From: a virus
Lineage: Duplodnaviria > Heunggongvirae > Uroviricota > Caudoviricetes
IMG/VR virus record: IMGVR_UViG_2529292920_000001
Location: 1 to 9,861 of that record
Length of the DNA stretch: 9,861 nucleotides
Direction: 5' to 3' (one strand)
Shown: positions 1 to 9,861 of the stretch, piece by piece
Layout of the letters: every line of letters starts with the position of its first letter
Numbering within the stretch: position 1 is the stretch's first letter
Notes under the pieces: generated by a model
Told to the model about the DNA's origin: nothing
Database searches by the model: none
What the model saw: the letters and a program-made list of their open reading frames with translations, nothing else
Program-made: the position numbers and the translations under genes

Positions 1-2
1 GG

Positions 3-1573
<1,571 letters not shown>

Positions 1574-1723
1574 CCATAAAGTTTCGACAACTAAAAAAAG
1601 AGAGTGCTGAACTTCATTAAAGAGTTGCATCCGGTACTGGCTAACATTATATTTATATACGACTAGTATATAGGGGGGCGCGCTGTTAATCTCATTTTAA
1701 TGAGACATATCAGTGCTTGAAGG

Positions 1724-1757
1724 GAGAGGGCGGAGTTCGGCTTTGCCCTCTCTTTTT
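1724..1757 (+). terminator. Candidate Rho-independent terminator for the ATPase/HNH operon
   Basis: Stem GAGAGGGC (1724-1731) pairs with GCCCTCTC (1745-1752) around a 13-nt loop, followed by TTTTT (1753-1757); about 150 nt downstream of the HNH gene stop. Confidence 0.5.
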
Positions 1758-1792
1758 CATGACTCCATTTAGCTTCAAATACTTGTTAAAAC

Positions 1793-2089
1793 TCATTGCA
1801 TTATTGCAACAGATTGATTAATAATTCCAATTAATGTGTTTATTTTTTCATTTATCTTAATGTGTTTTTTCTCTTGTTCAAGAGAAAGCTTCCTGAATTC
1901 ATTTTTCCTGCTCGGCACAGCAACTATCAATTCTTCATAAATCTCCTTTGCTCCTGATACTTTCGCCAACTCACTGCTGTGTTTTTCAATAAGAGAATTT
2001 ATTTGGATGTTTATATTCCTGTGTTCATGACTGGTAGCACTTGAAACAAGTTGACAGGAAGGCTTTGGGGTTGCCTCAATTAATTCCAC
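1793..2089 (-). CDS. Hypothetical protein, 98 aa, predicted helical
   Basis: ORF in the AT-rich stretch, 21 nt downstream of the 80 aa ORF on the same strand. Start is GTG (2087-2089) with no clear Shine-Dalgarno; no recognisable motif. Confidence 0.3.
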   Translation of the reverse strand: MELIEATPKPSCQLVSSATSHEHRNINIQINSLIEKHSSELAKVSGAKEIYEELIVAVPSRKNEFRKLSLEQEKKHIKINEKINTLIGIINQSVAIMQ

Positions 2090-2110
2090 GCATGTTATTG
2101 CGACATTGAA

Positions 2111-2353
2111 TTAAGATGTGGTTGAGTATAAATATTGATACACTCCTGTTTTTCTTACTTTGTTTAATAGTCCTTTTTTAACCAGGTATTGAATTTGATT
2201 ATAAGTAAAAGCTTTTGCCTTTAAATAAGTTTTCGGAAGTGAAAATCGCTCGATAAGAATTTTTGCTACATCGTTACTGGTGAAGTTATCTTTGCCAATG
2301 TAGATGATTGCAGAAAATATGTACGACTCAGAGTTGGTTACTCGACTATTCAT
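2111..2353 (-). CDS. Hypothetical small protein, 80 aa, possibly winged-helix DNA-binding
   Basis: ATG at 2351-2353 (minus strand), divergent from the HTH gene. A candidate -35 TTGTCT / -10 TATACT pair (18-nt spacer) lies on the minus strand upstream, overlapping the palindromic operators. Sequence pattern (VAKILIERFSLPKTYL...YLVKKGLL) loosely suggests a wHTH fold; not verified. Confidence 0.4.
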   Translation of the reverse strand: MNSRVTNSESYIFSAIIYIGKDNFTSNDVAKILIERFSLPKTYLKAKAFTYNQIQYLVKKGLLNKVRKTGVYQYLYSTTS

Positions 2354-2375
2354 ATGACTAGAACAAGGCTGTTGA

Positions 2376-2424
2376 CTTAGGATTGCTAAGTATACAACAA
2401 TGACAGATACTTAGACAATCTAAG
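2376..2424. promoter_or_regulatory. Two copies of a 15-bp palindromic operator-like site (CTTAG-N5-CTAAG) in a divergent promoter region
   Basis: CTTAGgattgCTAAG at 2376-2390 and CTTAGacaatCTAAG at 2410-2424, centres 34 bp apart. A larger inverted repeat CTAAGTAT (2386-2393) / ATACTTAG (2407-2414) links them. They sit between the divergent starts at 2353 (-) and 2451 (+). Confidence 0.5.
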
Positions 2425-2450
2425 CATCCGAGGCCAATGAAGATGAATCA

Positions 2451-2783
2451 GTGTCTGAAAAAAATCCGATACCAGAACGACTTAAGGAAGCGAGATGCAG
2501 GGCGGGTTTATCACAGCGCTCTCTGGGTCTCCTTGTTGGCTTTGATCCCGCATCGGCTAGCAGTCGTATGAATCATTATGAGAAAGGACGCCATGTCCCC
2601 GATATTGATACACTTCGAAGGATGGCGGCAGAGTTAAACGTGCCGTTGAACTACTTTTTTTGTGATGATCAGACAACAGCAGAACTTGCATTACTCATAT
2701 CCCGGATGACAGAGGAAGAGCGAAGTAGCCTTATCGAAGCACTCAAAACGTGTTCAGGTGTAAAACATGCTGACAAAAAATGA
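2451..2783 (+). CDS. XRE-family helix-turn-helix transcriptional regulator, 110 aa
   Basis: N-terminal Cro/C1-type HTH pattern (LKEARCRAGLSQRSLGLLVG ... MNHYEKGRHVPDIDTLRRMAAELNVPLNYFF). GTG start at 2451, so the exact start is uncertain. Stop TGA at 2781-2783 overlaps the next gene. Confidence 0.7.
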   Translation: MSEKNPIPERLKEARCRAGLSQRSLGLLVGFDPASASSRMNHYEKGRHVPDIDTLRRMAAELNVPLNYFFCDDQTTAELALLISRMTEEERSSLIEALKTCSGVKHADKK

Positions 2784-2961
2784 TGTTATACAAAAGGCTA
2801 TTGATCTTTTTGAAGGTAACGAAAGTGCAGCATTAAACTGGTGCAATGAACCAAACAGAGCATTACAGTGGAAAACGCCCTCTGAGATAATGGACTCAGA
2901 AGAGGGGGCGTTGAAAGTTGCCATGCTCATTTTTCGAATAGAGCAAGGCGTTTATTCATGA
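2767..2961 (+). CDS. Small DUF2384-like protein (Xre/MbcA/ParS antitoxin toxin-binding domain-like), 64 aa
   Basis: Own ribosome-binding site AGGTG (2756-2760) 6 nt before ATG at 2767. Pattern ALNWCNEPNRALQWKTPSEIMDSEEGALKVAMLIFRIEQG resembles the DUF2384 toxin-binding domain (recalled, not searched). It overlaps the HTH gene by 17 nt in the +1 frame. Confidence 0.5.
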   Translation: MLTKNDVIQKAIDLFEGNESAALNWCNEPNRALQWKTPSEIMDSEEGALKVAMLIFRIEQGVYS

Positions 2962-2975
2962 TTTACGACCCATCT

Positions 2976-3077: not shown

Positions 3078-3512
3078 TTATGACGACTTGTGTAACTCCC
3101 GAATTACATGTTTGGCCAACAGACTTTCCACCGGAATAACCGTATTGATTTTTACCGCTTTGACAATTTCTATCAACGACAGGGTATTCTGCGCCAGTTG
3201 GTCTCGCAGCTCACTGACTTCCGCCTGCAACTGCTGGTTTCTGGCCAGCAAGGCCTGACGGGTTTTGCGGTTGACGTATTGCTGTTTTTCTTTTGGGCGT
3301 AGATTCAATGGGCCAAGTTGCTGATCAACATAGGCAGCAATTAGGCGTTTTCGCTCAAGGCTGCTCAGCGTACTTAAACCACCGTTAACGATACCTTTTG
3401 CCTTGAGCCGAATATGCAGGGCCTTGGCGGAAATAGGGGACTTGTCAAAGCCTTCAACCAGCATCAGTTGTAATTCGTGCTCGATCAGTGTGTCCAGTTC
3501 CTTGCCGCGCAT
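3078..3512 (-). CDS. Small coiled-coil accessory protein of the recombinase operon (TnpC-like by position), 144 aa
   Basis: ATG (3510-3512) overlaps the stop of the upstream 424 aa gene in an ATGA arrangement. C-terminal half predicted coiled coil (ARNQQLQAEVSELRDQLAQ). No catalytic motif recognised. Confidence 0.5.
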   Translation of the reverse strand: MRGKELDTLIEHELQLMLVEGFDKSPISAKALHIRLKAKGIVNGGLSTLSSLERKRLIAAYVDQQLGPLNLRPKEKQQYVNRKTRQALLARNQQLQAEVSELRDQLAQNTLSLIEIVKAVKINTVIPVESLLAKHVIRELHKSS

Positions 3513-4786
3513 CAGTCGTTCTCCTGCATCAATTGTTGGTATTCAAGTGCAAAAAGCTGGGCCAGTGTACGGACTTTGCCCTCGGTGATTACTCCACCAG
3601 ACAACACACTCTCCGCAGCAACCAGTTGTTGAGTCTTGGCACGACGCTGCCATTGTGCTTGTATTGCCTCGAGTTGCTGTAACCGTCGTTCGATGTCGGC
3701 CAGTCTGGTCTGGTAGTCAGGCTGATGTTGTGTAAGTTGGGTCAACTTCGAATGTGCTTGCTGTAACGCCTGTTTTTTGGCAATCAGATTGGGTAGCTCA
3801 TCTATCCGGCCTGTCAGCGTGAAATGTTCACAAAAGGCAGCACTCTGGCATTTCAGTCGATAAGGACATCCCCAGAGGTTAACTTCCCGCATACAGGAGC
3901 CAAATTTCAGCGGATACATCACGGCATGTCTTGCCACCATGGCAGAGGCTTGCTCTGGTCCTTCTGCGTCGCGGATTTCTTCAAAGGCGGCAGCAACATC
4001 TTCAAAGAGGCCGTCAGCAAATGACGCCTCGACAAACCTAGCTACATCATCCCGATCGTCAAAAGTATGCAGGTTGGCTTTGATGGTATTGTCCAAAGTC
4101 ATGTGTTCCGTGACCGCCAGTTGGCCGGTCCGTTTGACGATTTCCAGTGGCGTAGCAACGGAGGACGAAGAGGGCGCGGCAGTTAGTGCTGTCGATATCG
4201 GCTGCAAGGGCACCAACGAGGCTGCTTTTCGCCGTTCTGCAAGCGCCAGATGCTGATAGTGCTGATTCTGCGTGATGTCCACTCTCCCCATCAGCATTGC
4301 CTGTAAGTGGTCAGCGATATCCGCAATGGCAAGAAAGGTATTGATGTTGTGCCGGGGAATGTGGGTACGCATCCGGGTGGGGGTACCATTCTCTTCCAGT
4401 AATTGATATTTGCTGAATACTGATCCATCAGGCTCAACATTGCCTAAAAATTTATTCATAAGTGTGTTAGTGAAGGGTATCGGTATAGCCAGCAAAGCCA
4501 GTGTGCGCTTTAATGCCAGCGAACCCTTCTCATGTAGAAATAACAGGTCTTCGTAGTTAACTTCGTAGCGTTTGCCATTTTCCATCCAGGCGTGCGTACA
4601 GGGTTCGTTGGCATTCGTCAGGCCAAATTCGGTCTTGATGTAATGATTAAGGTCAGTCTTGGAATAGAGGATTTTTAGGCCGAAAATGATGTAGTAGAAA
4701 TATCGAGGATCAATTTCCTGAGTTTCAAGGTAATTTTGAAATACTTTCAACAAATGCAGGTGTATAAATGGTACTATTCGACTCAT
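3512..4786 (-). CDS. Atypical tyrosine recombinase-like protein with C-terminal Cys-cluster/coiled-coil extension, 424 aa
   Basis: Residues ~142-180 read HIPRHNINTFLAIADIADHLQAMLMGRVDITQNQHYQHL, which aligns with tyrosine-recombinase box II (HxxRH ... LLGH ... Y), with Arg in place of the usual His and a candidate catalytic Tyr at ~177. A ~245 aa C-terminal extension follows, with C-x7-C-x5-C-x5-C-x-H and a Gln/Leu-rich coiled coil. Start is 9 nt after the upstream recombinase stop, without a Shine-Dalgarno. Confidence 0.6.
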   Translation of the reverse strand: MSRIVPFIHLHLLKVFQNYLETQEIDPRYFYYIIFGLKILYSKTDLNHYIKTEFGLTNANEPCTHAWMENGKRYEVNYEDLLFLHEKGSLALKRTLALLAIPIPFTNTLMNKFLGNVEPDGSVFSKYQLLEENGTPTRMRTHIPRHNINTFLAIADIADHLQAMLMGRVDITQNQHYQHLALAERRKAASLVPLQPISTALTAAPSSSSVATPLEIVKRTGQLAVTEHMTLDNTIKANLHTFDDRDDVARFVEASFADGLFEDVAAAFEEIRDAEGPEQASAMVARHAVMYPLKFGSCMREVNLWGCPYRLKCQSAAFCEHFTLTGRIDELPNLIAKKQALQQAHSKLTQLTQHQPDYQTRLADIERRLQQLEAIQAQWQRRAKTQQLVAAESVLSGGVITEGKVRTLAQLFALEYQQLMQEND

Positions 4787-4794
4787 TTAACTGT

Positions 4795-6252
4795 TTATTG
4801 ATTCGACTCATATGCACTCCATTCGTCACATACATGAGAAAAGGTTGCTCTCAGGGCCTCGTTATCCATAGCGATTCGGTGAAGATTGGCCGTATTAGCC
4901 TGCTGTGATAGAAATCTTTTGGCATAAACATCAGGCATATGGCTATTGTGACTCCAGCCGCCAAGCAGTCGTAATTCATCCTTGGCTTCATCCATTAATC
5001 CAACGATAGAAAAATCCATGACAGCCTGGAGTGAGTCGGCCTTAGTTTTTTGAAGTTTTTCACGATAAATGCGTTGAAGTGTCAAATAAGCCCAGGTATG
5101 CCGGGTTATATGAGGCGAGATGCTTTCAATGGCATCATAATATTCATCTGTTTTATATTCAGGATACCGCACACTCATAATGTCATCAATCCGGGTAAAG
5201 ATATCATAAACTGCATGGTATGACAGTGGCGGGTGTGGTTTTTGGGTGGAAGTGAACAGAAAACTATGGGAGGCTTGAGGGCGAATTTTATTGATATATA
5301 TATTTAGAAAATGAAAGTCCAGTTTATCTAATGCCAGCACCCGGTTTGCATAGACATTTTTTAATGAAGGCAATCTTTTTCGCTGATCCGAAACGTCGTC
5401 ATCTACTGTGGTCACAATCAGGCTGAACTGATCCCCTCGGAGATTTGGTTTGATCGAATGACACTCCAAAAGCAGTAATTCACTGACACGCAATCCGTAA
5501 TTTAAAAGCAATCTGCAAATCAGAAAATTACGTAGCTGGATTTCACCAGCGGGGAAGGGATTAAGTGGGTTTTTCTTTGAAATTGAACCGGGTGTAATGA
5601 TTTGGTAAAAAGCCATGACCATCTCAGCAGTCAGACTTCGAAAGCGCTTATGGGTCGTGCCATTGTTCATCTGACGAGAATGGGTAAGAGTACGGAATTC
5701 TGCTTTATGTATCGATAACCGTCCCGTTAACTGCGTGGCAAGTCGTGTGAGCTCTTTAGGTGAGCCATCTATATATCTCGGCGAGATATACGTGTTAATC
5801 AAATATCTGATAAAACGAATAACCGAATGTACATGCCTGATATTTGTACGACGTTGAGGCGTGGTCTGCGTCGTAGACCTTATGGTTAACGCTGGTACAT
5901 ATAAATGCGTATTTTCCAGATAATGAAAAAAGGCTGTAAGTTCATCAATGGCAATCAATGGATTGTGGTTCGAGGAATAGAAACTGAAGCAAAAAGTCAC
6001 GCCATGGTGCCAGAATTCATAGAAAAACTTGAGCGCTTGAAGTGAAGAGGATTGCGTGGCTGATGAACGCAAAGCAAGATGGTCTATAAGATATATTAAC
6101 GGATATAAAAGCGGCTGGCGCGTGTGAGTATCCATCAGTGCCCATAAACGCTGCCGTTGGTTGATATTGAGTTGTGTGAGTATGAACACGCGGCATTTAA
6201 CCATCGTAAATGGTGTGGGTATGAACAAAGTAACCGACAAACATAACGTCAT
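4795..6252 (-). CDS. Tyrosine recombinase / integrase, 485 aa
   Basis: Box I-like GLRVSELLLLECHSI, box II HITRHTWAYLTL, and LLGGWSHNSHMPDVYAKRF giving the LGH-like motif and a catalytic Tyr near the C-terminus. No Shine-Dalgarno before the annotated ATG, so the true start may be internal. Confidence 0.8.
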   Translation of the reverse strand: MTLCLSVTLFIPTPFTMVKCRVFILTQLNINQRQRLWALMDTHTRQPLLYPLIYLIDHLALRSSATQSSSLQALKFFYEFWHHGVTFCFSFYSSNHNPLIAIDELTAFFHYLENTHLYVPALTIRSTTQTTPQRRTNIRHVHSVIRFIRYLINTYISPRYIDGSPKELTRLATQLTGRLSIHKAEFRTLTHSRQMNNGTTHKRFRSLTAEMVMAFYQIITPGSISKKNPLNPFPAGEIQLRNFLICRLLLNYGLRVSELLLLECHSIKPNLRGDQFSLIVTTVDDDVSDQRKRLPSLKNVYANRVLALDKLDFHFLNIYINKIRPQASHSFLFTSTQKPHPPLSYHAVYDIFTRIDDIMSVRYPEYKTDEYYDAIESISPHITRHTWAYLTLQRIYREKLQKTKADSLQAVMDFSIVGLMDEAKDELRLLGGWSHNSHMPDVYAKRFLSQQANTANLHRIAMDNEALRATFSHVCDEWSAYESNQ

Positions 6253-6506
6253 GCAAGAAGAAGATAGAGGGATAGGTAAGTGTATGATTGATCGTAGTCT
6301 GTGGCTGGTTATGAACTAAATGAACGGCGGACTAAATTTAACATAATATACATTATGCGCACTGTTATCAGGACTGATGAAAACCGAAGGCCAGTCATCA
6401 CCAGAATTGCTGTAACCCATCAATTTCATCAACTGGCCACATCAATGCATGGACGACTCACGCCTTGCGTCGTTCGTCTCGATAGCTGCCCTTTAAAAGC
6501 GGCCTG

Positions 6507-6622: not shown

Positions 6623-6623
<1 letters not shown>
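6607..6623. other. Palindrome ATGCCGC-gtt-GCGGCAT abutting the pIV gene stop
   Basis: 7-bp arms with a 3-nt spacer, ending at the first base of the pIV stop codon (6623-6625). No T-tract follows on the minus strand, so it is not a canonical intrinsic terminator. Confidence 0.3.
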
Positions 6624-8937
<2,314 letters not shown>

Positions 8938-8951
8938 AAATCACCCTCTTA

Positions 8952-9235
<284 letters not shown>

Positions 9236-9252
9236 AATTCACCACCTGATTA

Positions 9253-9861
<609 letters not shown>

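What the first reader, a model, noticed from the sequence alone, without database searches (positions are those of the whole stretch)
1574..2450. AT-rich islet with two small uncharacterised genes between a defence module and a recombinase module
The 98 aa and 80 aa minus-strand ORFs sit in a stretch that is visibly more AT-rich than its flanks. It lies between a Septu-like ATPase/HNH pair and a recombinase operon, a context where uncharacterised defence, anti-defence or toxin-antitoxin genes are often found. Neither protein matches a family I can recognise. The 80 aa protein may be a winged-helix regulator and shares the operator-bearing divergent promoter with the HTH gene.
Basis: partly seen in the sequence, partly recalled or inferred. 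Interest (0 to 1): 0.6.

Follow-up and report, generated by a model that had tools for sequence, protein, structure and literature searches.

The report
Broken VspR-like island regulator gene
The two "small unknown genes" are the two halves of one 186-codon regulator gene, a distant relative of the Vibrio cholerae island repressor VspR, cut by a single stop-codon mutation; intact, it forms a conserved two-regulator switch at the head of the anti-phage cargo of a known mobile element (GInt) inserted in the chromosome's dif site.

Summary
The AT-rich stretch is real: 35% G+C at 1574-2450 against 44% for the window. The 98-aa and 80-aa ORFs are in one frame, separated by one TAA at 2111-2113. Intact relatives read GAA (Glu81) there and encode a single 183-186-aa protein. 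RefSeq annotates near-identical E. coli copies as a pseudogene with an internal stop.

The intact gene is under purifying selection (dN/dS about 0.2). It folds as an N-terminal winged helix plus a C-terminal helical hairpin. It is homologous over its full length to proteins carrying Pfam VspR_N and VspR_C (hhalign 99.2%).

It is always transcribed divergently from a 110-aa homologue of the restriction-modification controller protein C.Csp231I. Two invariant palindromes (CTTAG-N5-CTAAG, 34 bp centre to centre) lie between them and overlap both predicted promoters. This pair recurs from Enterobacteriaceae to marine bacteria.

In E. coli the pair sits just after ginD of a GInt element inserted in dif, next to variable, often defensive cargo (retron Ec78 here). 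In this window the regulator is truncated and the gin operon carries deletions.

Verdict: a decaying copy of a known kind of island regulator. It is not two new genes, a toxin-antitoxin pair or a defence effector. Its regulatory targets are inferred, not shown.

The parts
1..1573 (+). 3' part of ptuA (to 920) and ptuB (923-1573) of a retron Ec78-type system. This is cargo of the mobile element and not part of the conserved regulator module.
   Evidence: NCBIfam PtuB equivalog at 220 bits (cut-off 150); PtuA C-terminal 272 aa at 348 bits. RefSeq annotation of sister strains shows the retron RT upstream.
1574..1616 (.). Lineage-specific junction between the ptuB stop and the conserved module. 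Homology to some non-retron elements starts at 1582; homology to all lineages starts at about 1617.
1617..1792 (-). Conserved non-coding 3' region of the regulator gene. It holds a hairpin at 1724-1752 followed by T5 (1753-1757) on the + strand, which would terminate transcription coming from the cargo. It also holds a minus-strand TATAAT (1651-1646) that faces the cargo and is conserved in most lineages.
   Evidence: Alignment of 12 loci; sequence read directly; no Rfam family matched.
1793..2353 (-). Single 186-codon VspR-family regulator gene ('X186'), inactivated by the nonsense mutation GAA->TAA at codon 81.
   Evidence: G241T; pseudogene annotation; family assignment.
2111..2113 (-). Premature TAA stop (Glu81 in intact alleles). 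It lies right after the winged-helix domain and before the linker and the helical hairpin.
2376..2390 (.). Operator 1, CTTAGGATTGCTAAG. It overlaps the -35 of the HTH110 promoter and abuts the -10 of the X186 promoter.
2410..2424 (.). Operator 2, CTTAGACAATCTAAG. It overlaps the -35 (TTGTCT) of the X186 promoter and lies just downstream of the predicted -10 of the HTH110 promoter.
2451..2783 (+). HTH110, a 110-aa Xre-type regulator homologous to the restriction-modification controller protein C.Csp231I. It is the invariant divergent partner of X186.
   Evidence: PDB 3lfp at E 2.4e-22; PADLOC Control_protein at E 5.5e-26; Pfam HTH_3.
2767..2961 (+). 64-aa ORF consisting only of the DUF2384 / ParS C-terminal toxin-binding domain. 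It overlaps HTH110 by 17 nt. No RES toxin gene is nearby. It is frameshifted in several lineages.
3078..3512 (-). ginD-like gene (144 aa), the last gene of the GInt recombination operon.
   Evidence: Synteny with complete ginABCD in the sister strain L012; GInt definition in PMC5385486.
3512..4786 (-). 424-codon fusion ORF: GinB N-terminal remnant plus the C-terminal 386 aa of GinC. It was produced by deletions of 2335 bp and 274 bp relative to the sister strain.
4795..6252 (-). ginA-like tyrosine recombinase gene.
   Evidence: Pfam Phage_integrase (weak), NCBIfam XerA-like; synteny.
6336..6363 (-). dif site (27 of 28 matches) at the ginA-proximal end of the GInt. Homology to the sister strain stops here; a filamentous prophage follows.

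Best explanation
Window 1793-2353(-) is one gene, not two. It encodes a 186-aa VspR-family DNA-binding regulator with an N-terminal winged helix, a flexible linker and a C-terminal helical hairpin. In this lineage it carries a premature stop at codon 81, which leaves at most the 80-aa winged-helix domain without the hairpin. In intact elements the gene is one arm of a conserved two-regulator switch. It is transcribed divergently from a C.Csp231I-like controller protein (HTH110). Two invariant palindromic operators, 34 bp centre to centre, overlap the predicted -35 and -10 elements of both promoters. Inferred: HTH110 binds these operators, autoregulates, and sets the level of the VspR-like protein. 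Also inferred: the VspR-like protein represses neighbouring island genes, as V. cholerae VspR represses the CBASS operon next to it on VSP-1. Shown: the switch is a fixed 1.35-kb block placed immediately after ginD in enterobacterial GInt elements, at the start of their variable, often defensive cargo (retron Ec78 plus an ABC-three-component system here). Inferred: in the window the VspR-like function is lost. The element itself is also decaying, with ginB and half of ginC deleted, so the stretch is best read as a degenerating regulatory module of an immobilised defence island.
For: One gene:
- Same frame and a single TAA.
- Intact 183-186-aa orthologues in E. coli, Salmonella, Citrobacter, Enterobacter, Klebsiella and Pectobacterium.
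- Pseudogene annotation in RefSeq.
- The same retron-carrying GInt exists with an intact allele; the window differs from it by 6 nt in 561, including G241T = E81*.

Real gene:
- dN/dS is 0.18-0.27 overall: 0.15-0.3 for the N-terminal domain, 0.10-0.2 for the C-terminal domain and 0.3-0.8 for the linker.

Decay after the stop:
- The four private differences among four nonsense copies are all non-synonymous or nonsense, including a second stop in L006.
- Many protein variants of the 98-aa fragment exist.

Fold:
- AF2 mean pLDDT 80, with a winged helix at residues 8-86 and a helical hairpin at 109-184.
- Foldseek full-length matches to two-domain PadR-type regulators at E about 1e-4.

Family:
- A close homologue, P0033, carries PF27213.
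- P0154 carries PF27192.
- Distant profile hits carry VspR_N plus VspR_C.
- hhalign gives probability 99.2%, E 1e-19 over 179 columns.

Partner and operators:
- Homology to C.Csp231I.
- The operators occur only in this intergenic region of the window.
- They are identical in every locus checked whose sequence includes this intergenic region.
- They are retained in a marine locus where the VspR-like protein belongs to the distant group (24% identical in the profile alignment) while the HTH is 63% identical.
- Of 85 operator-pair sites in metagenomes, 81 have the HTH gene, 72 have the VspR-like gene and 68 have both.

GInt and dif context:
-.

Defence cargo next to the module:
-, and PMC10121019.

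VspR as repressor of CBASS:
- PMC10653837.
Against: - No experiment or expression data exist for this locus.
- The DNA targets of the VspR-like protein are unknown.
- No operator copies were found upstream of ginA or in the cargo, so control of gin genes or defence genes is inferred only from position and from the V. cholerae analogy.
- The V. cholerae VspR sequence itself could not be fetched. The link rests on the names of two Pfam models that are absent from the local Pfam copy.
- The operator half-site order (CTTAG-N5-CTAAG) is the reverse of the published C.Csp231I site (PMC3115060), so binding by HTH110 is likely but untested.
- In this window the adjacent retron operon converges on X186 instead of lying downstream of it.
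- A sister strain with the same nonsense allele still has an intact gin operon, so loss of X186 and loss of mobility are not coupled.
- The 80-aa winged-helix fragment could still be made and retain some activity.
Confidence: 0.75

Rival explanations
1. Two independent small genes (80 aa and 98 aa) form an uncharacterised defence, anti-defence or toxin-antitoxin pair.
For: Both ORFs are called as separate proteins in many public assemblies. The neighbourhood is rich in defence genes.
Against: The ORFs share a frame and are split by one stop. The split form is confined to one lineage at 99% identity or more, 7 of 213 E. coli records. The gene is a single ORF in every other lineage examined. No Shine-Dalgarno sequence precedes the GTG of the 98-aa ORF. 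The downstream part accumulates non-synonymous changes and a second stop. No toxin or enzyme domain was found.
Confidence: 0.03
2. The nonsense allele is not mere decay. Loss of the dimerisation hairpin inactivates a repressor, or creates a dominant-negative winged-helix fragment, and the resulting derepression of island genes such as the retron or ABC-three-component cargo was selected.
For: The allele is widespread within its lineage: roughly 160 contigs across the listed variants, including Citrobacter. The 80-aa N-terminal ORF stays open in all four copies, though one carries R36Q. vspR mutants of V. cholerae have higher CBASS transcript levels (PMC10653837).
Against: All carriers are nearly identical, so hitch-hiking of a neutral or slightly deleterious mutation explains the spread equally well. 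No independent recurrence of truncation at this position was seen. The retron operon has its own orientation and presumably its own promoter. The element shows other signs of decay.
Confidence: 0.15
3. The VspR-like protein and HTH110 regulate the GInt's own recombination (gin operon expression, excision or integration) and not the cargo. That would make them backbone genes of the element, comparable to an immunity or RDF-type module.
For: The module is found with at least three very divergent gin lineages, next to ginD. In Enterobacter ludwigii an approximately 8-kb GInt carries nothing else but this module plus one more HTH gene. The module is more conserved than the gin genes.
Against: No operator copy lies upstream of ginA. 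The same pair occurs in marine loci where no gin genes are seen nearby. GInts of Pseudomonas were defined without such genes (PMC5385486). L012 keeps an intact gin operon despite the nonsense allele.
Confidence: 0.2
4. The stop codon is a sequencing or assembly error and the gene is intact in the organism.
For: A single-base difference is involved.
Against: The same TAA is present in independently sequenced complete genomes (TOK-001, 2017-02-1CC) and in a metagenome-derived contig. The resulting 98-aa and 80-aa ORFs are on record from many assemblies.
Confidence: 0.01

Closest known systems
VspR (VC0177) of Vibrio cholerae island VSP-1; Pfam VspR_N (PF27213) and VspR_C (PF27192)
   Same: The length (about 185 aa) and the two-domain layout match. 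Full-length profile homology to proteins carrying both Pfam domains is strong. It is an island-borne regulator placed next to anti-phage genes; VspR is reported as the negative regulator of the adjacent CBASS operon (PMC10653837).
   Different: Identity to the VspR-like group tested is only about 24%. It is a separate enterobacterial subfamily, with only 47 representatives at 50% identity in 1.84 billion proteins. It lives in a GInt at dif, not in VSP-1. Its targets are unknown, and here the gene is truncated. Authentic VC0177 was not available for direct comparison.
Two-domain PadR-family regulators (B. subtilis PadR 5x11, VanR 6lg2/5z7b, AphA 1yg2)
   Same: An N-terminal winged helix-turn-helix is followed by a C-terminal helical domain. 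Foldseek aligns the full length at E about 1e-4.
   Different: There is no PadR Pfam hit. Identity is 12-15% and TM-scores are about 0.33. The C-terminal part is a simple two-helix hairpin. This is a resemblance of architecture, not membership.
C.Csp231I / C.EcoO109I class of restriction-modification controller proteins (Sorokin motif 8). This applies to the partner gene HTH110.
   Same: About 46% identity over 85 residues to C.Csp231I, including its C-terminal extension. Two 15-bp palindromes built from CTTAG/CTAAG half-sites lie 19 bp apart upstream of its own gene; C.Csp231I has CTAAG-N5-CTTAG twice, about 18 bp apart (PMC3115060).
   Different: No restriction endonuclease or methyltransferase follows; a 64-aa DUF2384 ORF does. 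The half-site order is reversed. The operators also sit in the promoter of a divergent regulator gene.
[quoted passage not shown]
   Same: The ginA-ginB-ginC-ginD order is followed by cargo. A 10-nt direct repeat lies at the ends. Defence systems are carried as cargo, as already reported for E. coli (PMC5385486, PMC10214605, PMC10121019).
   Different: The window copy lacks ginB and half of ginC. Insertion inside dif and the conserved regulator module after ginD were not found in the papers read here.
Xre-RES / ParST / MbcTA type II toxin-antitoxin systems. This applies to the 64-aa ORF at 2767-2961.
   Same: The ORF matches the C-terminal toxin-binding domain of the antitoxin (Pfam Xre_MbcA_ParS_C at E 2.6e-11; NCBIfam positions 55-112 of 112).
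   Different: It has no N-terminal HTH in the same polypeptide and no RES toxin gene nearby. It is frameshifted in several lineages.

Membership tests
VspR family (Pfam VspR_N + VspR_C) | Sequence match to the two Pfam models | tested here: inconclusive
   The local Pfam copy lacks both models: VspR-like proteins themselves give no hit. Precomputed hits exist for close relatives only: P0033 (80% identical) has PF27213 and P0154 has PF27192.
VspR family (Pfam VspR_N + VspR_C) | Full-length homology to proteins that carry both domains | tested here: met
   hhalign of the X186 alignment (A2) against an alignment (A3) whose tested members (P0178, P0176, P0189, P0180) carry VspR_N plus VspR_C: probability 99.2%, E 1.1e-19, 179 columns.
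VspR family (Pfam VspR_N + VspR_C) | Two-domain architecture of about 185 aa: winged helix plus helical C-terminal domain | tested here: met
   AF2 model of the intact orthologue, pLDDT 80. In the window itself the ORF is interrupted at codon 81.
VspR family (Pfam VspR_N + VspR_C) | Acts as transcriptional repressor of neighbouring island genes | not testable with these tools
   Known for V. cholerae VspR only (PMC10653837, citing Davies 2012). No expression or binding data exist for this locus.
PadR family | Match to the PadR Pfam model | tested here: not met
   No PadR hit at E <= 0.1. Only fold-level similarity was found.
C-protein (controller) of restriction-modification systems, C.Csp231I class (partner gene HTH110) | Sequence homology to a characterised C protein | tested here: met
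   3lfp at E 2.4e-22; PADLOC Control_protein at E 5.5e-26, near full length.
C-protein (controller) of restriction-modification systems, C.Csp231I class (partner gene HTH110) | Pair of palindromic operators upstream of its own gene | tested here: met
   Two copies of CTTAG-N5-CTAAG, 19 bp apart, conserved in all loci whose sequence includes this intergenic region. The half-site order is reversed relative to the published site (PMC3115060).
C-protein (controller) of restriction-modification systems, C.Csp231I class (partner gene HTH110) | Co-transcribed with, or adjacent to, a restriction endonuclease gene | tested here: not met
   The downstream gene is a 64-aa DUF2384 ORF, followed by a convergent ginD. 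No REase or MTase lies in the module.
GInt mobile element | ginA, ginB, ginC (tyrosine-recombinase-type) and ginD in one operon | tested here: not met
   In the window ginB is almost entirely deleted and ginC has lost its N-terminal half. The full operon is present in sister strain L012 and in plasmid L021.
GInt mobile element | Site-specific insertion flanked by 10-17-nt direct repeats, with cargo after ginD | tested here: met
   Comparison with K-12 shows the island inserted in dif, with the 10-nt repeat ATTTAACATA at the far end and complete dif next to ginA. The cargo varies between lineages.
   The two ORFs are one interrupted gene. No toxin family appears in Pfam, NCBIfam, PHROGs or PADLOC.
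Retron Ec78 / Septu-type PtuAB (left flank) | PtuA ATPase plus PtuB HNH, with a retron RT upstream | tested here: met
   NCBIfam PtuB equivalog above cut-off; PtuA fragment. The RT is annotated upstream in sister strains.

The most novel reading that the evidence does not exclude
The C-protein-like/VspR-like divergent pair with its two invariant operators is a portable 'island controller'. On arrival in a naive cell no controller protein is present, so the VspR-like repressor and the neighbouring genes are expressed on a timed schedule, as in restriction-modification C-protein circuits. Afterwards the pair gates expression of whatever defence cargo lies beside it (CBASS in VSP-1; Gabija, Hachiman, retrons and ResIII helicases elsewhere). 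The E81* allele would then be a natural derepressed mutant.
Probability: 0.2. Interest if true: 0.6.

Novelty: new member of a known kind. Interest (0 to 1): 0.3.

Why it matters
For the finding as submitted, the result is corrective. There is no pair of novel small genes here, only a pseudogenised regulator. Automated annotation that lists the 80-aa and 98-aa ORFs as separate proteins is misleading.

The wider by-product is modestly useful. A compact signature picks out a conserved regulatory module beside defence cargo in GInts and in other islands, from E. coli to marine Gammaproteobacteria. The signature is a C.Csp231I-like gene, two CTTAG-N5-CTAAG operators 34 bp centre to centre, and a VspR-like gene. 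It links the little-studied V. cholerae VspR to a broader family with a fixed partner and a defined candidate operator. This makes VspR-type regulation of defence islands directly testable. The natural intact and E81* alleles on the same retron-carrying element provide a ready-made comparison.

Tried and rejected
- The afdb50 fold library was unavailable.
- The BFVD search returned nameless proteins of the same architecture and generic winged helices.
- Pfam, NCBIfam and PHROGs gave no significant family for the 186-aa protein. The IFT57, EarA, YcaO and SidD hits are all far below cut-off.
- The PADLOC AbiEi hit (E 7.5e-4) covers only the winged helix and was not taken as evidence of a toxin-antitoxin system.
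- A PDB sequence-profile search found nothing.
- Rfam found no RNA family in the window.
- I looked for operator copies upstream of ginA or in the cargo to link the switch to the gin operon and found none.
- I considered that the AT-rich stretch might be the GInt's 'short AT-rich 3' end'. I rejected this because the K-12 comparison places the element's far end about 8.3 kb beyond X186, so the retron and ABC-three-component genes are inside the element.
- I considered HTH110 plus the DUF2384 ORF as a frameshifted single ParS antitoxin. This is unresolved, but HTH110 aligns end to end with C.Csp231I on its own.
- I first read the window's and TOK-001's private substitutions as hitting invariant columns. 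Recounting showed E150K and I167K fall in variable columns, so that argument was dropped.
Full report
**1. The observation**

The window does contain a 98-aa ORF at 1793-2089(-) and an 80-aa ORF at 2111-2353(-). The stretch is more AT-rich than its surroundings. G+C is 0.352 for 1574-2450 and 0.332 for 1793-2353. It is 0.441 for the whole window, 0.421 for the ptuAB side and 0.456 for the recombinase side. So the coordinates and the composition are confirmed.

**2. One gene, not two**

The two ORFs lie in the same reading frame. They are separated only by the TAA at 2111-2113 and seven sense codons.

A megablast of 1500-2500 against 5,426 complete E. coli genomes found the region in 253 of them. 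In the seven records at 99% identity or more it lies next to ptuB. In the rest, homology starts just after the ptuB stop.

RefSeq annotates the interval in strains TOK-001 and 2017-02-1CC as a single pseudogene, 'hypothetical protein, internal stop'. A 94%-identical copy in strain PCP06173 is an intact 186-codon gene. In the alignment the intact copies read GAA (Glu81) where the window reads TAA.

The same retron-carrying element also exists with an intact allele (protein P0007, Salmonella and others). The window differs from that allele at 6 of 561 nucleotides, one of them G241T = E81*. The 'start' of the 98-aa ORF is the GTG of an internal valine, and no Shine-Dalgarno sequence precedes it (read).

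**3. A real gene, and a derived, decaying allele**

The protein family has 91 cluster representatives at 90% identity in the 5.8-billion-protein collection. Nearly all of the best-scoring ones are 183-186 aa. They come from E. coli, Salmonella, Citrobacter, Enterobacter, Klebsiella, Leclercia, Pectobacterium and Scandinavium.

Pairwise dN/dS between intact genes is 0.18-0.27. The N-terminal domain gives 0.15-0.3, the C-terminal domain 0.10-0.2, and the linker is relaxed at 0.3-0.8. Both halves are therefore under purifying selection as parts of one protein.

Four nonsense-allele copies could be compared at the DNA level: the window, TOK-001, 2017-02-1CC and a metagenome bin. Their four private differences are all non-synonymous or nonsense (E150K, I167K, R36Q and a second stop, Q180*) and none is synonymous. 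The protein collection holds at least ten single-substitution variants of the 98-aa fragment. This fits relaxed selection after the stop, but the counts are too small for a formal test.

**4. What the protein is**

An AlphaFold2 model of the intact orthologue has mean pLDDT 80. It shows a winged helix-turn-helix at residues 8-86, a disordered linker at 98-110, and a long antiparallel two-helix hairpin at 109-184. The premature stop falls right after the winged helix, so the hairpin is lost.

The family link came from elsewhere.
- A profile search of 1.84 billion representatives found only 47 relatives.
- The distant full-length ones (Photobacterium, Psychromonas, marine metagenomes) carry precomputed Pfam hits to VspR_N (PF27213) and VspR_C (PF27192).
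- A close homologue, P0033, carries PF27213, and P0154 carries PF27192.
- Profile-profile comparison of the two groups gives 99.2% probability, E 1e-19, over 179 columns at 24% identity.

The local Pfam copy lacks these two models, and I could not fetch V. cholerae VC0177 itself. The assignment 'VspR family' therefore rests on the Pfam names plus homology to their members. VspR is the VSP-1-encoded negative regulator of the adjacent CBASS (capV-dncV) operon (PMC10653837, citing Davies et al. 2012).

**5. The partner and the operators**

The divergent gene at 2451-2783 encodes a 110-aa protein that is about 46% identical over 85 residues to the controller protein C.Csp231I (PDB 3lfp, E 2.4e-22). 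It also matches the PADLOC 'control protein' model at E 5.5e-26.

The 97-bp intergenic region holds two palindromes, CTTAGGATTGCTAAG (2376-2390) and CTTAGACAATCTAAG (2410-2424). These are the only two matches in the window.

Consensus scanning places the X186 promoter at -35 TTGTCT / -10 TATACT and the HTH110 promoter at -35 TTGACT / -10 AACAAT. Both predicted promoters are overlapped by the operators.

C.Csp231I binds two CTAAG-N5-CTTAG sites about 18 bp apart (PMC3115060). Here the spacing is alike (19 bp) but the half-site order is reversed.

Both operators, spacers included, are identical in every locus checked whose sequence includes this intergenic region. That holds even in Enterobacter ludwigii, where X186 is only 52% identical.

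In a marine locus the VspR-like protein belongs to the distant group (24% identical in the profile alignment). There the HTH is still 63% identical to HTH110, and the two ACTTAG-N5-CTAAGT operators keep the same 34-bp register.

An exact-pattern scan of metagenome contigs returned at least 120 stretches. In the 80 loaded there were 85 sites: 81 have the HTH110-like gene on one side, 72 have a VspR-like gene on the other, and 68 have both. The four sites without the HTH gene and several of those without the VspR-like gene sit at contig ends.

The functional unit is therefore a conserved two-regulator switch, not a pair of small genes.

**6. Where it sits**

The synteny in E. coli and its relatives is ginA-ginB-ginC-ginD, a 64-aa DUF2384 ORF, HTH110, then divergently X186, then variable DNA.

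This is a GInt, a genomic island with three integrases plus GinD (PMC5385486, PMC10214605). GInts are already reported to carry defence systems in E. coli (PMC10121019).

A 1.35-kb block (window 1617-2964) is 85-93% identical at the DNA level across lineages. Their gin genes, by contrast, are only 67-75% identical or not alignable, and the DNA beyond 1617 is unrelated between lineages.

The cargo found beyond that point is:
- retron Ec78 plus an ABC-three-component system (this window, L001, L012, L017-20);
- Gabija (L009);
- Hachiman (L010);
- a DEAD/DEAH-box helicase and Avs4, with IS3 remnants between (L002);
- large NTPases (L004, L005).

A broader sample of genes downstream of VspR-like genes shows ResIII helicases, PtuA/GajA-type ATPases, type I restriction-modification parts and KAP NTPases, but also ordinary chromosomal genes.

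In E. ludwigii an approximately 8-kb GInt carries only this module plus a third HTH gene, and the module is inverted relative to the gin operon. The module also occurs on 97 plasmids, mostly conjugative Klebsiella plasmids.

**7. Element ends, and decay in this window**

A dif site (27 of 28 matches) lies at 6336-6363, 84 nt upstream of ginA. Comparison of sister strain 2017-02-1CC with K-12 shows the whole island inserted in dif. The 10-nt XerD-arm sequence ATTTAACATA is repeated at the far end, about 8.3 kb beyond X186. The retron and the ABC-three-component genes are therefore GInt cargo.

The AT-rich stretch is internal, so it is not the element's AT-rich 3' end.

To the right of dif the window carries a filamentous prophage, with Secretin and Zot domains.

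Relative to the sister strain, the window has lost 2335 bp and 274 bp. These deletions remove ginB and the N-terminal half of ginC and create the 424-codon fusion ORF. All four gin genes are reported to be essential for GInt recombination (PMC5385486), so this copy is presumably immobile.

**8. Mechanism: what is shown and what is inferred**

Shown:
- It is one gene with a premature stop.
- The family is under purifying selection.
- The architecture is a winged helix plus a helical hairpin.
- It is homologous to VspR-domain proteins.
- It has an invariant C.Csp231I-like partner.
- Two conserved operators overlap both predicted promoters.
- It occupies a fixed position after ginD, beside variable, often defensive, cargo.

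Inferred:
- HTH110 binds the palindromes, autoregulates, and controls X186.
- X186 dimerises through its hairpin and represses neighbouring island genes, as VspR does.
- The E81* allele abolishes this.

I put about 0.97 on 'one broken gene', about 0.9 on 'VspR family', and about 0.5 on the specific regulatory wiring.

**9. Rivals**

- Two independent genes, or a toxin-antitoxin or defence pair, is essentially excluded (see sections 2-4).
- An adaptive derepressing truncation cannot be excluded, but all carriers form one near-clonal lineage.
- Regulation of gin recombination instead of cargo is plausible, given the minimal E. ludwigii element. It lacks any operator near ginA, and the pair also occurs without visible gin genes.
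- A sequencing error is excluded by the independent genomes.

**10. Novelty and verdict**

Each component belongs to a known kind: a VspR-family regulator, a C.Csp231I-class controller homologue, a GInt, and defence cargo on GInts. I did not find three things in the papers read. These are the pairing of the two regulators with a fixed operator signature, its placement after ginD, and the insertion of this GInt family in dif (for dif).

The submitted finding itself is a pseudogene, so interest is low to moderate.

Noticed in passing
window 6336-6363 (and L012 8014-8023, 23459-23486, 30121-30148): A dif site lies 84 nt upstream of ginA. Comparison with K-12 shows this GInt family inserted inside dif, with a 10-nt XerD-arm repeat (ATTTAACATA) at its far end and full dif regenerated next to ginA. 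dif also lies just upstream of ginA in L003, L004, L008 and L009. No paper in the library links GInts to dif.
   Followed up: partly
window 6623-9861: A filamentous (Inovirus-type) prophage directly abuts dif: pIV-like secretin (6623-7882-), Zot/pI-like ATPase (7879-8937-) and small membrane-protein ORFs. It behaves like an Xer-dependent integrative element. The sister strain has different DNA at the same side of dif.
   Followed up: partly
window 9624-9825: An 18-nt tandem repeat occurs 11 times at 96% match. The listed 91-aa ORF (AAVRVQ repeats) is probably the wrong frame. Another frame reads GSGTGT repeats, as in the glycine-rich linkers of phage pIII-type proteins.
   Followed up: no
window 3512-4786 and 4666-4737: The gin operon is broken. 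Deletions of 2335 bp and 274 bp relative to strain 2017-02-1CC remove ginB and the N-terminal half of ginC, leaving an in-frame 424-codon fusion ORF. Other copies of the same element carry different deletions (TOK-001, L017-L020).
   Followed up: yes
window 2767-2961: A stand-alone 64-aa ORF made only of the ParS/MbcA/Xre C-terminal toxin-binding domain (DUF2384) overlaps HTH110 by 17 nt. No RES toxin gene is nearby. The exact sequence is on more than 700 contigs, yet the ORF is frameshifted in several GInt lineages. A lone DUF2384 ORF also sits near the VspR-like gene in a Photobacterium locus (L025 256-492).
   Followed up: partly
window 1617-1792: A 175-nt non-coding stretch 3' of the regulator gene is conserved across lineages. 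Its hairpin (1724-1752) plus T5 would terminate only transcripts coming from the cargo side. A minus-strand TATAAT (1651-1646) faces the cargo. No Rfam family matched; its function is unknown.
   Followed up: partly
L025 8001-9934; L057, L060, L028, L027, L097, L105: In the marine/Vibrionaceae branch the VspR-like gene overlaps the start of a ~460-aa ResIII-type helicase gene (weak PADLOC PbeA hit), suggesting a two-gene operon. In Photobacterium it is followed by OLD-TOPRIM/UvrD (Gabija-like) and TIR genes.
   Followed up: partly
L036 5660-5801, L037 5373-5514, L060 8678-8818, L083 727-868: Some metagenome loci carry two operator pairs (four palindromes) in tandem between the HTH110-like and VspR-like genes.
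   Followed up: no
L014-L016 7570-15314; L026: In Enterobacter ludwigii and E. hormaechei the three-regulator module (HTH110-like, VspR-like, 98-aa HTH) is inverted relative to the gin operon. In E. ludwigii it is the only cargo of an approximately 8-kb GInt that is not at dif.
   Followed up: partly
L006 (contig labelled 'Bacillota bacterium' MAG) and L010 ('Sutterella' MAG): Contigs 99.7% identical to the E. coli retron/GInt region (L006), or carrying the enterobacterial module (L010), are binned in unrelated MAGs. This is probably mis-binning.
   Followed up: no
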